Positions 9,257 through 26,577 of a stretch of 64,000 nt of DNA are shown here, piece after piece (within the stretch, counting starts at the first letter, position 1; the number at the start of each line of letters is the position of its first letter). The position numbers and the translations under genes were made by a program. Location of the stretch: positions 3,172 through 67,171 of the forward strand of contig JBIIOE010000004.1 of the NCBI GenBank assembly GCA_044337105.1, written 5' to 3'. The DNA is from Bdellovibrionota bacterium (lineage in GTDB: Bacteria > Bdellovibrionota_C > UBA2361 > OMII01). A model generated the notes under the pieces. It made no database searches and was not told where the DNA came from. It saw nothing but the letters and a program-made list of their open reading frames with translations.

Positions 9257-10120
9257 TTATCTACCCATCAACTGCAGAGCTAGCTGCGGCTGCTGGTTCG
9301 CTTGGGCAAGGATTGCTGCTCCCGCCTGTTGCAAGATGTTGAGTCGTGTCAATTCCGCTGCTTCCGTTGCTACATCGACGTCTCGGATGCGGCTCTCTGC
9401 GGCCTTGAAGTTCTCTCGCGCTACCTGGAGGTTCGCGATAGTTACCTCTAATCGGCTCTCGGCAGCTCCGAGATTTCCTCGATTGAGGTTCACGGAGGCG
9501 ATCGCCGCATTAATCGCATCAATCGCGAGACGGGCCGCCGTCTGGGAAGCTATCTCGTTCTCTGCGATGATGGATACTCGAGGCGCCGAGCTGTTTACGT
9601 CGGCGAGCCCGAGCGCTGCCAGTGTGGCCTCGACCGTTCCGTAGCTAATTCGCGAGAGCGACGTTCCGTCGAATCCGACCTGGAAAACCACCGACTGACC
9701 GCCGCTCAAGAGGTTTAGCCCGTTAAATTTGGTCGTGAGAGCAATACGCTCAATTTCAGATGTCAGCGCCGTAAACTCATTCTGAAGCGCCGATCTCTGC
9801 GTATTCGCGAAGACGCCGTTGGCGCTCTGCTCCGCTAGCTCACCGAGGCGGGTTAGCGTATTGGCGATCTGCCCTACAGCTTGGTCTGCAATCGATATGA
9901 CGGAGATACCATCATTGGCATTTCGCACCGCCACCGTGGCGACTGCTGCGTCAGCCTTGAGGTTCTCAGCGATTGCCAACCCGGCTGCGTCATCTCGCGC
10001 TCTATTGATGCGGAGACCGCTCGATAGTCGCTCGTATGAGGTGTTCAGTTTGCTCGAGCTTTGATCCAGATTTCTCTGGGCGAGCAACGATGGAATGTTT
10101 GTCCTAATGTTGATTGCCAT
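9257..10120 (-). CDS. fliC: Flagellin paralogue (short, about 287 aa)
   Basis: Same conserved termini as the downstream copy (LSSGLRINRARDDAAGLAIAE, ILQQAGAAILAQANQQP). A 17-bp spacer with AGGAGG separates it from the next flagellin gene. Confidence 0.93.
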   Translation of the reverse strand: MAINIRTNIPSLLAQRNLDQSSSKLNTSYERLSSGLRINRARDDAAGLAIAENLKADAAVATVAVRNANDGISVISIADQAVGQIANTLTRLGELAEQSANGVFANTQRSALQNEFTALTSEIERIALTTKFNGLNLLSGGQSVVFQVGFDGTSLSRISYGTVEATLAALGLADVNSSAPRVSIIAENEIASQTAARLAIDAINAAIASVNLNRGNLGAAESRLEVTIANLQVARENFKAAESRIRDVDVATEAAELTRLNILQQAGAAILAQANQQPQLALQLMGR

Positions 10121-10192
10121 TATCCTTGTCTCCGTGGCGAAACAGTCCAGCTATCCGGACTATACAAATCTCTCCGTAGTAGGGCGCGAATC

Positions 10193-10219
10193 CCTTCGTC
10201 CCTGTGTCGGCAAACTTTG
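10193..10219 (-). promoter_or_regulatory. Weak candidate sigma-28 (FliA) promoter for the flagellin genes
   Basis: The minus strand reads CAAAGTTT-N11-GACGAAGG, compared with the consensus TAAAGTTT-N11-GCCGATAA. That is 7/8 at -35, exact spacing, and only 4/8 at -10. It lies about 70 nt upstream of the flagellin ATG. Confidence 0.3.
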
Positions 10220-10343
10220 CCGTTCATTTTCTCTAGAGGAGTATTGAGCAAGGAGCTTGCCAACATCGGTGCTGGCAGCGCTCCAAGACCCACTTTTCAC
10301 ATCCAACTGCCTACTCCTCTTGATCATTGCTTCCTCACTCACC

Positions 10344-11228
10344 TCAGAAAAGTTTCTTACTGGACACGACTCGCGATACGTACTCGCGTGTTGAGGCGGG
10401 AAGAAATGGGGCTACGTTGTCGTAGTGTGCCGGGTCTTTGCCGGCGCGCTGTGCTCGGTGTTGGGCTGAAGCCACCCGTCCTTCACCAGCATTGAAGGCG
10501 GCAACGGCAAGCATCTCCAGCGAGGTGTCATCTGCTGCCGGCTTTGTGCTTCTGTCGTTGGGCAGCGATGTAGGAGACTTGAAGATGTCATGAAGGTACT
10601 TCAGGTACGAAGTGCCGAGCTCTATGTTGAGGTCCGGATCGAACGGATCATATGGACGGTCGGTCTGCGCTCCGCGAGCAAGCAGGTCTTTACCTGTGGA
10701 GTCGAGGAGCTGAAAAAGTCCCTTCGAAGCATGACCATCTGAGCTCACCGCTCGAGGATTGAAACCGGATTCAGTCTTAACAACTGCAGCCGCCAAACTT
10801 GGATCGATGCCGAATCTCTGTCCGGCGGTCTGGAGCTTCTGACGGATCTCCACTTGTCCGATCTGGGAGCCCGTGACACCAGCCGGGTCGCCGGCAAGCT
10901 CTATACGTTTAACCTGGTAAACCGCCGGGGTTTTGACACCCTCAGTCACCGTTTCGACCTGCTCCTGTGTCGGATCCGGTGGCATCTCCGGCTGCATGCT
11001 CGGTAACTCGAGCGCTGGCTCGTCGAAGCGGTATCGGGCACGGATGTCCTCTGGCGAGCTCGGCGGCACCGGAGGCTCAGGTGATTTCTCTGTGATTACT
11101 GGTGGTTGAGGAAGAAGGCTGTTGAGACTGCCGTCAAAGCTACTCTTGCCCGTAGAGGGCGCAGGCGACGCAGAGGCCCTTAAAAGCCGAGAAACGTCTT
11201 TGAAATGTGCTCCGAAATCTATTCGCAT
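10344..11228 (-). CDS. Lytic transglycosylase (SLT domain) with a Pro-rich N-terminal region, possibly flagellum-associated
   Basis: AVVKTESGFNPRAVSSDGHASKGLFQLLDSTG carries the SLT catalytic Glu-Ser motif. The gene is adjacent to the flagellins. ATG 11228 with GAGGGAAAGGA upstream is preferred over TTG 11252. Confidence 0.8.
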   Translation of the reverse strand: MRIDFGAHFKDVSRLLRASASPAPSTGKSSFDGSLNSLLPQPPVITEKSPEPPVPPSSPEDIRARYRFDEPALELPSMQPEMPPDPTQEQVETVTEGVKTPAVYQVKRIELAGDPAGVTGSQIGQVEIRQKLQTAGQRFGIDPSLAAAVVKTESGFNPRAVSSDGHASKGLFQLLDSTGKDLLARGAQTDRPYDPFDPDLNIELGTSYLKYLHDIFKSPTSLPNDRSTKPAADDTSLEMLAVAAFNAGEGRVASAQHRAQRAGKDPAHYDNVAPFLPASTREYVSRVVSSKKLF

Positions 11229-24130: not shown

Positions 24131-24445
24131 CTAGCGTAGGAGGCTCAAGCGCTCCTGGATAGCTTCAGGATTTCCCTCATACTGCTTCAGGCTATCCTGC
24201 AACGAGAGCGGATCGAGGTCGAGATGCAATGCCACCCAAGCAAAACTGAAAGGACGCTTCGGTGTAAGCTTGCCGAACAACCACTGGCGCGCACTACGAA
24301 CTACGTGACGCTCACAGTGAGCAGTACCGAAAGCATCGCAAATTGCTCGAGCAAGAACGGCTGCTAGTAGATTTCTCTCCGGCTTTACCGGGGAGGACGC
24401 TTCGTTCTCATCTTCGGGCAAAAACTTGTTCGCAGAGTTGCTCAT
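24131..24445 (-). CDS. Hypothetical protein (104 aa)
   Basis: An isolated ORF with an ATG start. No recognisable motif. Confidence 0.4.
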   Translation of the reverse strand: MSNSANKFLPEDENEASSPVKPERNLLAAVLARAICDAFGTAHCERHVVRSARQWLFGKLTPKRPFSFAWVALHLDLDPLSLQDSLKQYEGNPEAIQERLSLLR

Positions 24446-24913
24446 ACGATCACAGATCTCCAGCAGTTACAAATAGTTAGAAAGATAAATTAAAGAGGTG
24501 TTGAGAAAGGGGAATCAGGACACCGAGAACGAACCGAAATAACCTCTGCGCTTACCAAACCTGAGATGGCTGTCATTAGCGGGGCCTCCTGCCGTCTGTA
24601 ACGCTTCGGCTTAGATCTCCCCTTACGGGACACTCTAAGCACTACTTACATCGAGAGCGCATTTATTCGACAAGACGATCGACAAAACGCTGGGACGAGG
24701 CAAGTAGCTGGGTCTGTTCGCGAATCCTAACGTGTAGGAGTACATTAGGTTTGATGTAAGCGTCAATAGCTTTTTTAAGTTACTTTAAGCTACTACTCTT
24801 TTTTTTCAGGGGTTTGGGTCGGAATCTGTGTTGATCCAATCCGAGGACCACTGGTTTGACATTTTTGCCTCAGAGAGTTAGCCTTCGCGCTCGTCGATTC
24901 TTAGGAGTAGTCA

Positions 24914-25483
24914 ATGAATTCGGGTGTGAACAAGAAGAAGCTCTTCATCAGCAACCTCGACTTTGAAGTCACCAGTGAGCAGCTGCGCCAGCTGTTCGAA
25001 GAGGTTGGTCCTTCCATCAGCGTAGTCGTAGCATCTGACCGCGAGACGAAGCGCTCAAAGGGATTTGCGTTTGTCGAGATGGAGCGTGAAGAGGATGCCC
25101 AGAAGGCTATCGAGACCCTCAACAATCGCGCTGTCAACGGCCGTCCGATGAAGGTGTGCGAGGATCGCGGCAAGAACAGCTCGTCGGCACCTTCTGAAGG
25201 TGGCGCTGAGGGTGGTCGCAGGTTCGAACCACTTCCGTCGATCCAGAGGATGCAGCTTTTCAAGCGTCGTAAGAAGCTTGATCCGTTTACTGAAGATCCA
25301 AGGAAGACGATCGATTACAAAGACGTTGCTATGCTCTCGAAGTTCGTGAGCGAGCGCGGTCGTATCCTTTCGCGTCGTCTCACTGGCCTCAGTGCGTACA
25401 ATCAGCGCAAGGTTGCCAAGGCTATCAAGAGAGCTCAAAGCCTGGGCCTCATGCCGTTTACGACGTTGCAGAGCAACCCATAA
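24914..25483 (+). CDS. rpsR: RRM-domain RNA-binding protein fused to ribosomal protein bS18
   Basis: The N-terminal RRM has RNP2 (LFISNL) and RNP1 (KGFAFVEM). The C-terminal 75 aa (FKRRKKLDPF...IDYKDVAMLSKFVSERGRILSRRLTGLSAYNQRKVAKAIKRAQSLGLMPF) are collinear with E. coli S18. AGGAG lies upstream of the ATG. Confidence 0.85.
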   Translation: MNSGVNKKKLFISNLDFEVTSEQLRQLFEEVGPSISVVVASDRETKRSKGFAFVEMEREEDAQKAIETLNNRAVNGRPMKVCEDRGKNSSSAPSEGGAEGGRRFEPLPSIQRMQLFKRRKKLDPFTEDPRKTIDYKDVAMLSKFVSERGRILSRRLTGLSAYNQRKVAKAIKRAQSLGLMPFTTLQSNP

Positions 25484-25511
25484 TATCTCTCAACCGCAGA
25501 GATATTTCGAA

Positions 25512-25537
25512 AGCCGGCCTTGTGCCGGCTTTTTTTA
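25512..25537 (+). terminator. Rho-independent terminator of the RRM-S18 gene
   Basis: AGCCGGC-cttgt-GCCGGCT is followed by TTTTTTT, 29 nt after the stop codon. Confidence 0.85.
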
Positions 25538-25605
25538 TGGCTGAAATGCTACCTCGTGAGGCGCTGTTGGCGTTGCGGTCGGGTGGGAGGAGCATGGCTC
25601 TATTA

Positions 25606-25869
25606 GCTCCACTAGATACCAGCACGGCGATCCAAGCACTAGGCGGACCCCCCACGGACCGCGGAGCTTCCGCTCCGCTAGATAATAGCTCCACGATTCA
25701 AGCTAACAGGCGGACTGGAAAGTCCGCGGTCCGTTTCCGCTCCGCCAGATAGCAGCGCTACGATCCAAGCAGCAGGCGACCCCCCACGGACCGCGGAGCT
25801 TCCGCTCCGCTAGATAATAGCACCACGATTCAAGCTAAAAGGCGGACTAGAAAGTCCGCGGTCCGGATC
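25606..25869. repeat. Tandem array of four roughly 66-nt units in A-B-A-B order (about 133-bp period), each ending in a short GC hairpin
   Basis: Units are at 25606-25671, 25672-25738, 25739-25803 and 25804-25869. The hairpins are GCGGAGC-ttcc-GCTCCGC and GCGGACT-gRaa-AGTCCGC. Confidence 0.9.
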
Positions 25870-25884
25870 GCTCGGCTGTCGATA

Positions 25885-26577
25885 TCACTTCTTCGCCGGC
25901 TCCCACGGCTTGTCACCCGGAACCTGAAACACTCGGTGGTCTGACTTCATGACCTGATCGAGTGACACGGCTTTACTCAGCTCGTCGAGAACGAACTTGA
26001 TGCGTTTCCCGCTTTCTTCGACAAGACGGGCGGCTTCCTGCCTGTCCTCGGCCGGTGCGGATGCACTCTTCAGGATGTAGGCAGCTCCCAATACCGCACC
26101 CAGTGGGTTGTTGATCTCGTGCCGCAGGGTATCTACGAGCGTGCGAACCGTATCGACAATAGTTGCTTTGCGTCTTACCTCTTCGAGTTCGCGCTGAGTA
26201 CGATTGCGATCTACGAGGCCGAGAACGAGCGGTTTGAAGCTGGGGTCTCTCACCTTGTCTTTCGAAAGAAAATAGGTGACTCCTGCACGCATAGAACTGC
26301 CAGGAATCTCCGGGTCCGCATCTGAGCTTACCGCGAGCACCGCGAGCCCCTGTAATTGCTCCTCACTCATCAGTTCAAGCCCAATACCATCAGGCAAATG
26401 GTGATCGAGAATAACAAGGTCCGGCTGCAATGTGGGGTTACCCCTGATACCGTTTCGCGCTTCGGTTACAGAGGAGAAAATGACCAATGAGAGGTCGGGA
26501 ATGAAGGATTTCAGGCGCATCGAAAGGAGCTTCCTAAACTCGACGCTGTCATCAAGGATTACTATCGTCGTTTTCAT
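25885..26577 (-). CDS. Response-regulator receiver domain fused to a HisKA (DHp) domain, with no ATPase domain
   Basis: The REC part is IVILDDS...DLVILDHHLPDGIG. The H-box is LRHEINNPLGAVLG. Only about 75 aa follow the H-box, which is too short for HATPase_c. Confidence 0.7.
   Translation of the reverse strand: MKTTIVILDDSVEFRKLLSMRLKSFIPDLSLVIFSSVTEARNGIRGNPTLQPDLVILDHHLPDGIGLELMSEEQLQGLAVLAVSSDADPEIPGSSMRAGVTYFLSKDKVRDPSFKPLVLGLVDRNRTQRELEEVRRKATIVDTVRTLVDTLRHEINNPLGAVLGAAYILKSASAPAEDRQEAARLVEESGKRIKFVLDELSKAVSLDQVMKSDHRVFQVPGDKPWEPAKK

What the first reader, a model, noticed from the sequence alone, without database searches (positions are those of the whole stretch)
24914..25483. Ribosomal protein bS18 carrying an N-terminal RRM RNA-binding domain
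A single uninterrupted ORF encodes a canonical RRM (RNP2 LFISNL, RNP1 KGFAFVEM), then a Gly/Ser/Glu linker of about 30 aa, then a complete S18 (RRKKLDPF, IDYKDV, SERGRIL, TGLSAYNQRKVAKAIKRA, LMPF). It has its own Shine-Dalgarno sequence and a strong terminator. It is not in the usual rpsF-(priB/ssb)-rpsR-rplI context. I am not aware of a described bacterial bS18 with an RRM extension. If this is the only rpsR, every 30S subunit would display an extra RNA-binding module near the mRNA/platform side. If it is a paralogue, it could define specialised ribosomes or a moonlighting regulator.
Basis: partly seen in the sequence, partly recalled or inferred. Interest (0 to 1): 0.7.

Follow-up and report, generated by a model that had tools for sequence, protein, structure and literature searches.

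The report
RRM domain fused to ribosomal bS18
A real, strongly conserved gene in a large uncultured bacterial lineage joins a single-stranded-RNA-binding RRM domain by a floppy glycine-rich tether to ribosomal protein bS18, which would place an extra RNA-binding module beside the mRNA exit of the small subunit; whether it is the genome's only S18 gene could not be checked here.

Summary
Window 24914-25483 (+) is one uninterrupted 189-aa ORF. It has an RRM_1 domain (aa 10-79, E=1.9e-24) and a complete bS18 (TIGR00165, 85 bits against a cutoff of 38.75).

It is not an assembly artefact. All 240 listed 90%-identity clusters from independent assemblies have the same architecture. They fall into two subfamilies plus at least two further divergent representatives, and local synteny is conserved, so the fusion is ancient and vertically inherited.

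- **Selection:** both domains are under strong purifying selection (dN/dS 0-0.09). The linker is Gly-rich, variable in length and predicted disordered.
- **Expression signals:** a conserved TTGACA promoter element, an AGGAG Shine-Dalgarno, an intrinsic terminator, and the strongest codon bias of 52 window ORFs.
- **Context:** no rpsF, ssb or rplI lies nearby in any of the contexts examined.

Most likely this is the lineage's working bS18. The RRM would then be tethered at the 30S platform and mRNA exit, acting on single-stranded mRNA leaders.

I could not test whether a conventional rpsR (or rpsF) exists elsewhere in these genomes, so the paralogue reading stays open. Six literature searches found no description of this architecture. 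Databases label it simply "30S ribosomal protein S18". I rate it a new variant of a known kind, of moderate-to-high interest.

The parts
24856..24884 (+). Putative sigma-70 promoter: -35 TTGACA (24856-24861), 17-nt spacer, -10 TAGCCT (24879-24884). Implies a 5' UTR of about 25-30 nt.
   Evidence: Read from the sequence. TTGACAT at the same distance from the ATG is conserved in L003, L010, L001 and L006. The other subfamily (L004, L008) has a TTGCAA element instead. The pattern scan did not call it because the -10 is weak. Promoter function is inferred.
24903..24907 (+). Shine-Dalgarno AGGAG, 6 nt upstream of the start codon.
   Evidence: Sequence. The same cttAGGAGtagtcaATG is present in L003.
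24914..25483 (+). Complete ORF (189 aa plus stop) encoding RRM-linker-bS18.
   Evidence: The exact sequence is present in NCBI, JGI, ENA and Logan assemblies. It has the lowest effective number of codons of 52 window ORFs.
24935..25168 (+). RRM domain (aa 8-85), with RNP2 LFISNL and RNP1 KGFAFVEM.
   Evidence: - Pfam RRM_1, E=1.9e-24.
- AlphaFold pLDDT above 90 with a beta-alpha-beta-beta-alpha-beta fold.
- Foldseek matches solved RRMs at about 1 A rmsd.
- RNP aromatic residues are invariant in the family.
- dN/dS is 0-0.09.
25169..25234 (+). Gly/Ser/Glu-rich flexible linker (aa 86-107).
   Evidence: - pLDDT is below 50 for aa 88-101.
- It is the lowest-conservation segment: 62% mean identity to the window, against 81% and 85% for the domains.
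- dN/dS is 0.13-0.36.
- Length varies across the family and Gly makes up 26-33% of residues.
25235..25480 (+). bS18 module (aa 108-189): a conserved N-terminal lead-in PSIQRMQLF, the basic tail KRRKKLDPF, and the S18 core.
   Evidence: - TIGR00165 scores 87.6 bits for the module alone.
- PDB sequence search: aa 111-185 align to residues 4-78 of Lactococcus bS18, chain 5myj_AR.
- 45% identity to E. coli S18 over 71 aa.
- Core pLDDT is 84-91.
- dN/dS is about 0.05.
25509..25538 (+). Intrinsic terminator: a 10-bp stem (GAAAGCCGGC / GCCGGCUUUU), a 5-nt loop and a U-run.
   Evidence: RNA fold of 25484-25545: -22.2 kcal/mol for the segment, including a smaller hairpin at 25484-25504, z=-3.47, and 0 of 200 shuffles fold as well.

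Best explanation
This gene encodes the small-subunit ribosomal protein bS18 of an uncultured bacterial lineage. In a common ancestor it acquired, at its N-terminus, a free-standing bacterial RRM-type RNA-binding protein together with its glycine-rich tail.

**Shown:**
- One ORF with a canonical RRM whose RNA-binding RNP residues are invariant.
- A disordered, variable Gly-rich tether.
- A complete and conserved bS18, including its basic N-terminal tail.
- Its own conserved promoter, SD and terminator, and strong codon bias.
- Ancient, vertically inherited and widespread distribution.

**Inferred:**
- The S18 module assembles into the 30S platform as usual, with S6, next to the 3' end of 16S rRNA.
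- The bS18 N-terminus points into the platform cavity at the mRNA exit and anti-Shine-Dalgarno region. The tether, roughly 25 residues and up to about 80-90 A when extended, would therefore hold the RRM over that region.
- There the RRM would bind single-stranded RNA. Most likely this is the 5' leader of mRNAs emerging from or approaching the exit channel. That would raise the local concentration of mRNA, or keep leaders unfolded, in the manner of bS1 or a ribosome-attached RNA chaperone.
- It is probably the principal rpsR of these genomes, and quite possibly the only one.
For: - **Architecture:**
- **Independent replication of the junction:** all 120 listed hits to the window protein and all 120 listed hits to P0159 carry PF00076 plus PF01084 in proteins of roughly 170-240 aa. 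At least 4 clusters at 50% identity appear in a full scan of 1.84 billion representatives.
- **Shared synteny across subfamilies:** ECH and a 104-109-aa gene lie upstream, and a response-regulator/HisKA gene lies downstream.
- **Purifying selection on both domains, relaxed on the linker:**, with conservation profiles.
- **Two independently folded domains with no fixed orientation:** pTM 0.43, linker pLDDT below 50.
- **The S18 module is full length and keeps the basic tail:**
- **High-expression signals:** lowest Nc (45.8 against a median of 56.0) and Arg CGT+CGC 79% against 46%; conserved -35 element and SD; terminator.
- **Position of the bS18 N-terminus.** It contacts mRNA during initiation, and plant bS18c N-terminal extensions project into the platform cavity (bioRxiv 10.64898/2026.07.03.736309, read). 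bS18, bS21 and bS6 form the pocket that holds the anti-SD tail (PMC7797042, PMC9976891).
- **Function of free-standing bacterial RRM-1 proteins:** they bind mRNAs and sRNAs and support cold adaptation (PMC11697453, PMC13370968).
- **Origin of the linker:** the nearest free-standing RRM proteins in the genome scan carry Gly-rich C-tails, for example L049 and L044. This fits the linker being the remnant of such a tail.
Against: - No whole fusion-bearing genome could be searched. A conventional rpsR in an rpsF-rplI operon elsewhere is not excluded.
- The fusion's S18 module scores lower against TIGR00165 (88, 84 and 61 bits) than four ordinary S18 proteins do (102-127 bits). It is somewhat divergent.
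- Ribosome incorporation, RNA binding and the RNA target are all untested.
- The gene lies outside any ribosomal operon in every context examined.
- SD-like motifs occur upstream of about a third of window ORFs. There is thus no sign that the lineage needs an SD substitute.
Confidence: 0.55

Rival explanations
1. It is a paralogue. The genomes keep a normal rpsR in the rpsF operon. The RRM-S18 protein would then be an alternative subunit that makes specialised ribosomes under some condition such as cold. Or it would be an extraribosomal regulator that uses the S18 module to bind S6 or an rRNA-like mRNA leader.
For: - It has a non-ribosomal genomic context and a stand-alone transcription unit.
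- S18 paralogues exist in other phyla (own knowledge: Zn-independent S18 copies in Actinobacteria and Firmicutes).
- The S18 module scores 15-40 bits lower against TIGR00165 than ordinary S18s do.
- One source names a family member 'cold-inducible RNA-binding protein'.
Against: - The S18 module is conserved as tightly as the RRM or more so, with dN/dS about 0.05 and 85% mean identity within the subfamily.
- The gene has the strongest codon bias in the window.
- The family is ancient and kept at a fixed locus in every lineage sampled.
- The three fusion-bearing assemblies found in the genome scan gave no second S18-motif hit among the 80 loci kept.
Confidence: 0.22
2. The RRM is a structural ribosome element rather than an mRNA handler. 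It would dock permanently on 16S rRNA or on a neighbouring protein, as the RRMs of chloroplast cS22 do on h6 and h10. In the extreme version it occupies or replaces the site of S6, which has the same ferredoxin-like fold and an acidic tail and normally pairs with S18.
For: - cS22 is among the best PDB matches of the RRM by sequence (5x8p_v, E=1.1e-19) and by structure (5mmj_v).
- cS22 RRMs bind 16S helices (PMC5737520 and bioRxiv 10.64898/2026.07.03.736309).
- The order [alpha/beta domain]-[Gly/acidic tail]-[S18] mirrors S6 followed by S18 (own knowledge of S6 fold and operon order).
- No rpsF lies near the gene in any context.
Against: - The domain is unambiguously RRM_1 by sequence, with no S6 family hit.
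- The canonical single-stranded-RNA-binding RNP1 and RNP2 aromatics are invariant.
- AlphaFold predicts no contact between the RRM and the S18 module.
- The linker varies widely in length (RNP1-to-SERGRI spacing 78-155 aa). That is unusual for a domain docked at a fixed site.
- Presence or absence of rpsF in these genomes is unknown.
Confidence: 0.15
3. It is an assembly, frameshift or gene-calling artefact that joins an rbp gene to rpsR.
For: None found. One 82-aa RRM-only relative (P0164) ends abruptly and looks like a fragment.
Against: - The same continuous ORF occurs in hundreds of independent assemblies from four sources.
- The junction region EPLP[SP]IQRMQLF is itself highly conserved.
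- The one partial 'fusion-like' hit that did contain stops (L018, Anaerolineae) is an ordinary ssb-rpsR pair, not a family member.
Confidence: 0.01

Closest known systems
Bacterial ribosomal protein bS18 (rpsR; TIGR00165 / PF01084)
   Same: The C-terminal 80 aa are a full-length S18. They include the basic N-terminal tail and the core helices. Identity is 45% to E. coli S18, and the match runs end to end against bS18 chains in solved ribosomes.
   Different: It carries about 107 extra N-terminal residues containing a folded domain. It is encoded as a stand-alone unit away from rpsF, ssb and rplI. Its HMM score is lower than that of ordinary S18s.
Free-standing bacterial RRM-1 proteins (cyanobacterial Rbp, Bacteroides RbpA/B/C; NCBIfam NF058537 Rbp_regulator)
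   Same: A single RRM with canonical RNP1 and RNP2 followed by a Gly-rich segment. It scores 89.8 bits on NF058537. Identity is 45-57% between the RRM of fusion-family member P0159 and free-standing RRM genes in Bdellovibrionota, Acidobacteriota and others. These proteins bind mRNAs and sRNAs and aid cold adaptation (PMC11697453, PMC13370968).
   Different: It falls below the curated cutoff of 100 bits for NF058537. It is covalently joined to a ribosomal protein rather than diffusible. In Bacteroides the free proteins appeared not to act in ribosome assembly (PMC13370968).
Chloroplast cS22 (PSRP2), an RRM-containing 30S protein
   Same: It is an RRM module that forms a stoichiometric part of a bacterial-type small subunit. 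It is among the top PDB matches to this RRM.
   Different: cS22 is a separate polypeptide with two RRMs bound to h6 and h10 at the foot of the subunit, and it is restricted to land plants. Here a single RRM is tethered to bS18 at the platform.
N-terminal extensions of plastid bS18c
   Same: Extra sequence is added at the same end of the same protein. It is proposed to reach the platform cavity and touch mRNA (bioRxiv 10.64898/2026.07.03.736309).
   Different: Those extensions are short, unstructured, basic/aromatic heptad repeats of 19-55 aa, not a folded RNA-binding domain.
bS1, the mRNA-capturing protein at the 30S platform
   Same: By inference only: a single-stranded-RNA-binding module placed near the mRNA exit and anti-SD region, which could recruit or unfold mRNA leaders.
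   Different: bS1 uses OB-fold (S1) domains, is a separate and loosely bound protein, and docks via uS2 (own knowledge). There is no sequence or fold relationship.

Membership tests
bS18 (TIGR00165 equivalog / PF01084) | Scores above the curated HMM cutoffs over the full model length. | tested here: met
   TIGR00165 scores 85.2 bits (cutoff 38.75) over model positions 1-68 of 70. PF01084 scores 86.6 bits (cutoff 21). The module alone scores 87.6 bits.
bS18 (TIGR00165 equivalog / PF01084) | End-to-end alignment with bS18 chains seen in solved ribosomes, including the basic N-terminal tail. | tested here: met
   aa 111-185 align to residues 4-78 of 5myj_AR. Many other bS18 chains match at E=1e-14 to 1e-17. 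The KRRKKLDPF tail is conserved.
bS18 (TIGR00165 equivalog / PF01084) | Typical, not strictly defining: encoded in the rpsF-(ssb/priB)-rpsR-rplI cluster. | tested here: not met
   No S6, SSB or L9 in the 64-kb window. None lies within 10 kb of the fusion in ten further loci or in the Pfam-annotated contexts.
bS18 (TIGR00165 equivalog / PF01084) | Physically part of the 30S subunit (binds with S6 to the 16S central domain). | not testable with these tools
   Needs ribosome purification with mass spectrometry, or cryo-EM. Indirect support only: strong purifying selection and codon bias.
bS18 (TIGR00165 equivalog / PF01084) | Is the genome's rpsR orthologue (no other S18 gene). | not testable with these tools
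   No tool gives access to a whole fusion-bearing assembly.
RRM (PF00076 RRM_1) | HMM match above cutoff, with RNP2 and RNP1 motifs carrying the conserved aromatic residues. | tested here: met
   85.7 bits (cutoff 20.7). LFISNL and KGFAFVEM are present. The F residues are invariant in alignments A1 and A2. RNP1 is present in 231 of 240 family members.
RRM (PF00076 RRM_1) | Beta-alpha-beta-beta-alpha-beta sandwich fold. | tested here: met
   The AlphaFold model has E8-13, H21-29, E34-41, E48-56, H59-69 and E80-83 with pLDDT above 90. Foldseek TM (target) is 0.89-0.93 and rmsd 0.9-1.5 A to solved RRMs.
RRM (PF00076 RRM_1) | Binds single-stranded RNA. | not testable with these tools
   Inferred from the invariant RNP residues only.
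Rbp_regulator (NCBIfam NF058537, equivalog_domain) | Score at or above the curated cutoff of 100 bits. | tested here: not met
   89.8 bits. It is a close relative of the family but is not filed as a member.
Chloroplast cS22 (PSRP2) | Separate polypeptide with two tandem RRMs. | tested here: not met
   There is a single RRM, fused to S18. cS22 matches only through its individual RRMs.
Ribosomal protein bS6 (PF01250 / TIGR00166), considered for the N-terminal domain | HMM match to S6. | tested here: not met
   No S6 family was reported for the protein at E<=0.01 in Pfam or NCBIfam. E. coli S6 gives no tblastn hit to the locus.

The most novel reading that the evidence does not exclude
In a whole, diverse, uncultured bacterial lineage this fusion is the only bS18. 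Every ribosome would then carry a built-in RRM on a flexible tether at the mRNA exit and anti-SD site. This would be a bacterial counterpart of the RRM-bearing initiation factors that sit on the eukaryotic 40S, taking over part of the mRNA-recruitment or chaperone role of bS1 or of free Rbp proteins. In the more extreme version it occupies the place of S6.
Probability: 0.35. Interest if true: 0.8.

Novelty: new variant of a known kind. Interest (0 to 1): 0.6.

Why it matters
Core bacterial ribosomal proteins rarely carry an additional folded RNA-binding domain. An RRM is the archetypal eukaryotic mRNA-handling module.

If this protein is the working bS18, a whole lineage has hard-wired an mRNA-binding or RNA-chaperone domain next to the anti-Shine-Dalgarno site. 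That would be a natural experiment in how mRNA recruitment can be built into the ribosome.

It would also act as a 'Rosetta stone' hint that free-standing bacterial RRM-1 proteins, whose mechanism is still debated, act at the translating or initiating ribosome.

The hypothesis is directly testable by heterologous expression, because bS18 and the 30S platform are highly conserved.

Tried and rejected
**Sole copy versus paralogue.** I looked for any route to scan a whole fusion-bearing genome and found none.
It was swamped by ordinary S18 and RRM genes and returned only three fusion loci.
- Contig look-ups give only +/-10 kb. Walking along 0.5-0.9 Mb contigs was not affordable.
- No S6 or L9 sequence from this lineage was available to seed a targeted search.

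**Taxonomy.**
- An exact look-up of eight window proteins found none in the collection, probably because of start-codon choices.
- NCBI record labels for family members are inconsistent: SAR324 cluster, Deltaproteobacteria, Oligoflexia, Bdellovibrionales, Bdellovibrionota and Pseudomonadota. The linked small neighbour gene adds Ca. Dadabacteria.
- I therefore do not name the phylum.

**Other dead ends.**
- Rfam: there is no r-protein leader or any other family at gathering score in the 64 kb. Only sub-threshold chance hits fall near the terminator.
- L018 (Anaerolineae) looked like a partial fusion in the scan table, but it is ssb followed by rpsR with stops between them. Rejected.
- Internal initiation at Met113 to make a free S18 is unlikely. 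The GAGG abuts the ATG with no spacer, and the Met is absent from the second subfamily.
- 'SD-less lineage needing a substitute' is not supported. SD-like motifs precede 17 of 52 ORFs, against a 15% background.
- The AlphaFold model of the conserved 104-aa neighbour was too poor (pLDDT 54) to search with. Pfam and PDB profile searches found nothing.
- Six literature searches found no description of an RRM-bS18 protein.
Full report
**Observation**

The ORF at window 24914-25483 (+) starts with ATG, runs 189 codons without interruption and ends in TAA.
- Pfam finds RRM_1 at aa 10-79 (E=1.9e-24) and Ribosomal_S18 at aa 131-180 (E=1.2e-24).
- NCBIfam's S18 equivalog TIGR00165 scores 85.2 bits against a cutoff of 38.75, over aa 116-183 and model positions 1-68 of 70.
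- An AGGAG Shine-Dalgarno lies 6 nt before the ATG.
It folds as a 10-bp GC-rich hairpin with a U-run at 25509-25538. The 62-nt segment folds at -22.2 kcal/mol, and no shuffle does as well.
- The window has no S6, L9, SSB or second S18. The neighbours are enoyl-CoA hydratase, UbiD, a response-regulator/HisKA protein, an ABC exporter and ArgRS.

The only adjustment is that the unstructured linker is nearer 20-26 residues than 30.

**It is a real gene family, not a join artefact**
- A search of 5.8 billion clustered proteins returned 484 hits. All 120 listed have both domains in proteins of about 171-242 aa, at 98-69% identity.
- The exact window protein occurs in NCBI, JGI, ENA and Logan assemblies.
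- A filter-free scan of 1.84 billion 50%-identity representatives found four full-length fusion representatives. They are P0122 (71%), P0159 (51%), P0147 (49%) and P0166 (45%).
- Searching with P0159 revealed a second, much more diverse subfamily. All 120 listed clusters, mostly singletons, are fusions; apart from the query they share 51-74% identity with it.
- In the genome collection three more fusion loci were read directly from DNA and are continuous.
- The one table entry that looked like a partial fusion (L018, Anaerolineae) is an ordinary ssb-rpsR pair with stop codons, and I reject it.

**One ancient fusion, inherited vertically**

The local gene order is kept across both subfamilies and the divergent clusters.
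- A highly conserved 104-109-aa gene of unknown function lies immediately upstream in most of them; in one (L090) five genes intervene. It is divergent in the window's subfamily and co-directional in the other.
- Enoyl-CoA hydratase lies further upstream in most contexts, but not in L006 or L088.
- A Response_reg+HisKA gene is convergent downstream, and often an ABC exporter follows.

NCBI labels on the records are inconsistent: SAR324 cluster, Deltaproteobacteria, Oligoflexia, Bdellovibrionales, Bdellovibrionota and Pseudomonadota. Ca. Dadabacteria appears for the linked neighbour gene. I therefore describe the host only as a broad, uncultured, 'deltaproteobacteria-like' lineage. True Bdellovibrio (L049) has only a free-standing RRM gene at its matched locus.

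**Anatomy and constraint**
- Within the window's subfamily, mean identity to the window protein is 81% for the RRM, 62% for the linker and 85% for the S18 module.
- Nei-Gojobori estimates give dN/dS of 0-0.09 for the RRM and about 0.05 for S18, while synonymous sites are far diverged (dS 0.4-1.2). The linker gives 0.13-0.36.
- The RNP aromatic residues are invariant. An RNP1 motif is found in 231 of 240 members.
- The linker is 26-33% glycine, and the RNP1-to-SERGRI spacing varies from 78 to 155 residues.
- AlphaFold, given a 52-sequence alignment, produces two confident domains (RRM pLDDT above 90, S18 core 84-91). They are joined by a low-confidence segment (aa 88-113) with no fixed mutual orientation, pTM 0.43.
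- Foldseek superposes the N-domain on solved RRMs at about 1 A.
- No PDB chain matches both halves. The S18 half aligns end to end with bS18 from solved ribosomes, for example aa 111-185 to residues 4-78 of 5myj_AR.
- The segment just after the linker, EPLP[SP]IQRMQLFKRRKKLDPF, is nearly invariant in this subfamily. It contains the basic N-terminal tail typical of bS18.

**Expression signals**
- A TTGACA(T) -35 element sits at the same distance upstream in the window, L003, L010, L001 and L006. A TTGCAA element takes its place in the other subfamily.
- With the SD and terminator this defines a monocistronic unit.
- The gene has the lowest effective number of codons of the 52 non-overlapping ORFs of at least 150 aa in the window (45.8 against a median of 56.0).
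- It uses CGT/CGC for 79% of Arg codons against 46% elsewhere, and never CGA/CGG against 36% elsewhere.
- This is the pattern expected of a highly expressed gene. It is consistent with a ribosomal protein, though not proof of one.

**Probable origin**
- The RRM scores 89.8 bits on NCBIfam's bacterial Rbp_regulator model, just under its cutoff.
- The RRM of family member P0159 is 45-57% identical to free-standing RRM genes of several phyla.
- Those genes end in Gly-rich tails.
- The simplest history is read-through fusion of an rbp-type gene, with its Gly-rich tail becoming the tether, onto a relocated rpsR.

**How it most likely works**

From structures of other ribosomes, bS18 sits on the 30S platform.
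- Its N-terminus becomes ordered on contacting mRNA during initiation.
- Plant bS18c N-terminal extensions project into the platform cavity (bioRxiv 10.64898/2026.07.03.736309).
- In Bacteroidia, bS18 with bS21 and bS6 forms the pocket that holds the anti-SD tail of 16S rRNA (PMC7797042, PMC9976891).

Attaching an RRM to that N-terminus by a disordered tether of roughly 25 residues would confine it to within about 80-90 A of the mRNA exit and anti-SD region. This is inference.

Free bacterial RRM-1 proteins bind mRNAs and sRNAs and are needed for cold adaptation. They are thought to act as chaperones or global post-transcriptional regulators (PMC11697453, PMC13370968).

My best model is therefore a ribosome-attached single-stranded-RNA binder or chaperone that captures or unfolds mRNA leaders at the platform. 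I put 0.55 on the overall statement. The components are:

| Component | Confidence |
|---|---|
| It is a real, functional gene | about 0.99 |
| The S18 module is incorporated into 30S | about 0.8 |
| It is the only rpsR | about 0.65 |
| The RRM's target is mRNA leaders | about 0.4 |

**Rivals**
1. **Paralogue or specialised-ribosome or extraribosomal regulator (0.22).** The stand-alone locus favours it. So does the somewhat lower TIGR00165 score of the S18 module (88, 84 and 61 bits, against 102-127 for ordinary S18s). The very tight constraint, the codon bias and the ancient fixed locus count against it.
2. **Structural docking on rRNA like chloroplast cS22, or even occupation of the S6 site (0.15).** cS22 is among the best PDB matches, and its RRMs bind 16S h6 and h10. 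S6 shares the ferredoxin-like fold and an acidic tail, and pairs with S18 (own knowledge). Against this, the domain is clearly RRM_1 with intact RNP residues, and the tether length is highly variable.
3. **Artefact (0.01).** Refuted by the replication of the junction.

**What could not be done**

The central open question is whether a conventional rpsR, and rpsF, exists elsewhere in these genomes. It could not be answered.
- All other tools expose at most +/-10 kb around a known protein.

The weak negative evidence is that no second S18 appears in about 170 kb of fusion-lineage DNA fetched or among the 80 loci kept from the scan.

**Novelty and verdict**

Databases already hold these sequences under the automatic name '30S ribosomal protein S18', and in one case 'cold-inducible RNA-binding protein'. 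None of six full-text searches found a description of an RRM-bearing bS18.

It is a new variant of a known kind: a core bacterial ribosomal protein with an appended, folded, conserved RNA-binding domain. I score interest at 0.6. It would rise to about 0.8 if the fusion proves to be the sole bS18 and the RRM engages mRNA on the ribosome.

Noticed in passing
window 24131-24445 (-); orthologues at L001 9392-9718 (-), L003 9148-9462 (-), L006 9500-9817 (-), L004 9544-9873 (+), L088 9345-9668 (+), L090 5596-5919 (+): A 104-109-aa protein with no Pfam, PDB or NCBIfam match. It is extremely conserved (75-93% identity, core KPERNLLAAVLARAICDAFG[TS]AHCERH[VI]VRSARQW). It lies directly upstream of the RRM-S18 gene in most of the lineages examined, with five genes intervening in L090. 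Its orientation flips between the two subfamilies. It returns about as many database hits (453) as the fusion does (484). It is predicted all-helical, but the model is poor (pLDDT 54). It forms a conserved gene pair of unknown meaning with the fusion.
   Followed up: partly
window 25885-26577 (-); also L001 12371-13060, L004 10761-11447, L088 10669-11361, L090 10608-11327: A 230-aa protein with a receiver domain plus a HisKA dimerisation/phosphoacceptor domain but no ATPase domain. It lies convergent just downstream of the fusion gene in both subfamilies. This is an unusual truncated two-component architecture that is syntenic with the fusion.
   Followed up: no
L003 10689-19791 versus window 25484-25884: In the relative whose fusion protein is 98% identical (ENA 493-kb contig), about 9 kb of extra genes sit between the fusion gene and the response-regulator gene. 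They include a group II intron-type reverse transcriptase (RVT_1+GIIM). In the window the two genes are only 400 bp apart. This is an insertion or deletion difference between close relatives.
   Followed up: no
window 1-64000: No Rfam family reaches its gathering score anywhere in the 64 kb, on either strand. That means no tRNA, rRNA, riboswitch or r-protein leader.
   Followed up: partly
records behind P0062, P0112, P0118, L008-L010, P0324, P0401: Near-identical members of one protein family, all at the same syntenic locus, come from MAGs labelled SAR324 cluster, Deltaproteobacteria, Oligoflexia, Bdellovibrionales, Bdellovibrionota, Pseudomonadota and Ca. Dadabacteria. The public taxonomic labels for this lineage are unreliable. 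The fusion and its small neighbour gene could serve as a lineage marker.
   Followed up: partly
P0510: A fusion-family member is deposited as 'UNVERIFIED_CONTAM: hypothetical protein [Idotea baltica]'. It is bacterial contamination in a marine isopod genome assembly.
   Followed up: no
L006 / L007 (JGI 3300009417 and ENA ERZ27241769), gene at 10001-10522: The most divergent fusion representative (P0147, 173 aa) comes from a very AT-rich genome. It has a short Lys-rich linker and a weaker S18 score (TIGR00165 60.6 bits). It may be a fast-evolving or reduced-genome branch of the lineage.
   Followed up: no
window 24901-25263 (-) and 25055-25438 (-): Two antisense ORFs of 120 and 127 aa overlap the fusion gene. 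I take them as chance open frames opposite a codon-biased gene, not as genes.
   Followed up: no
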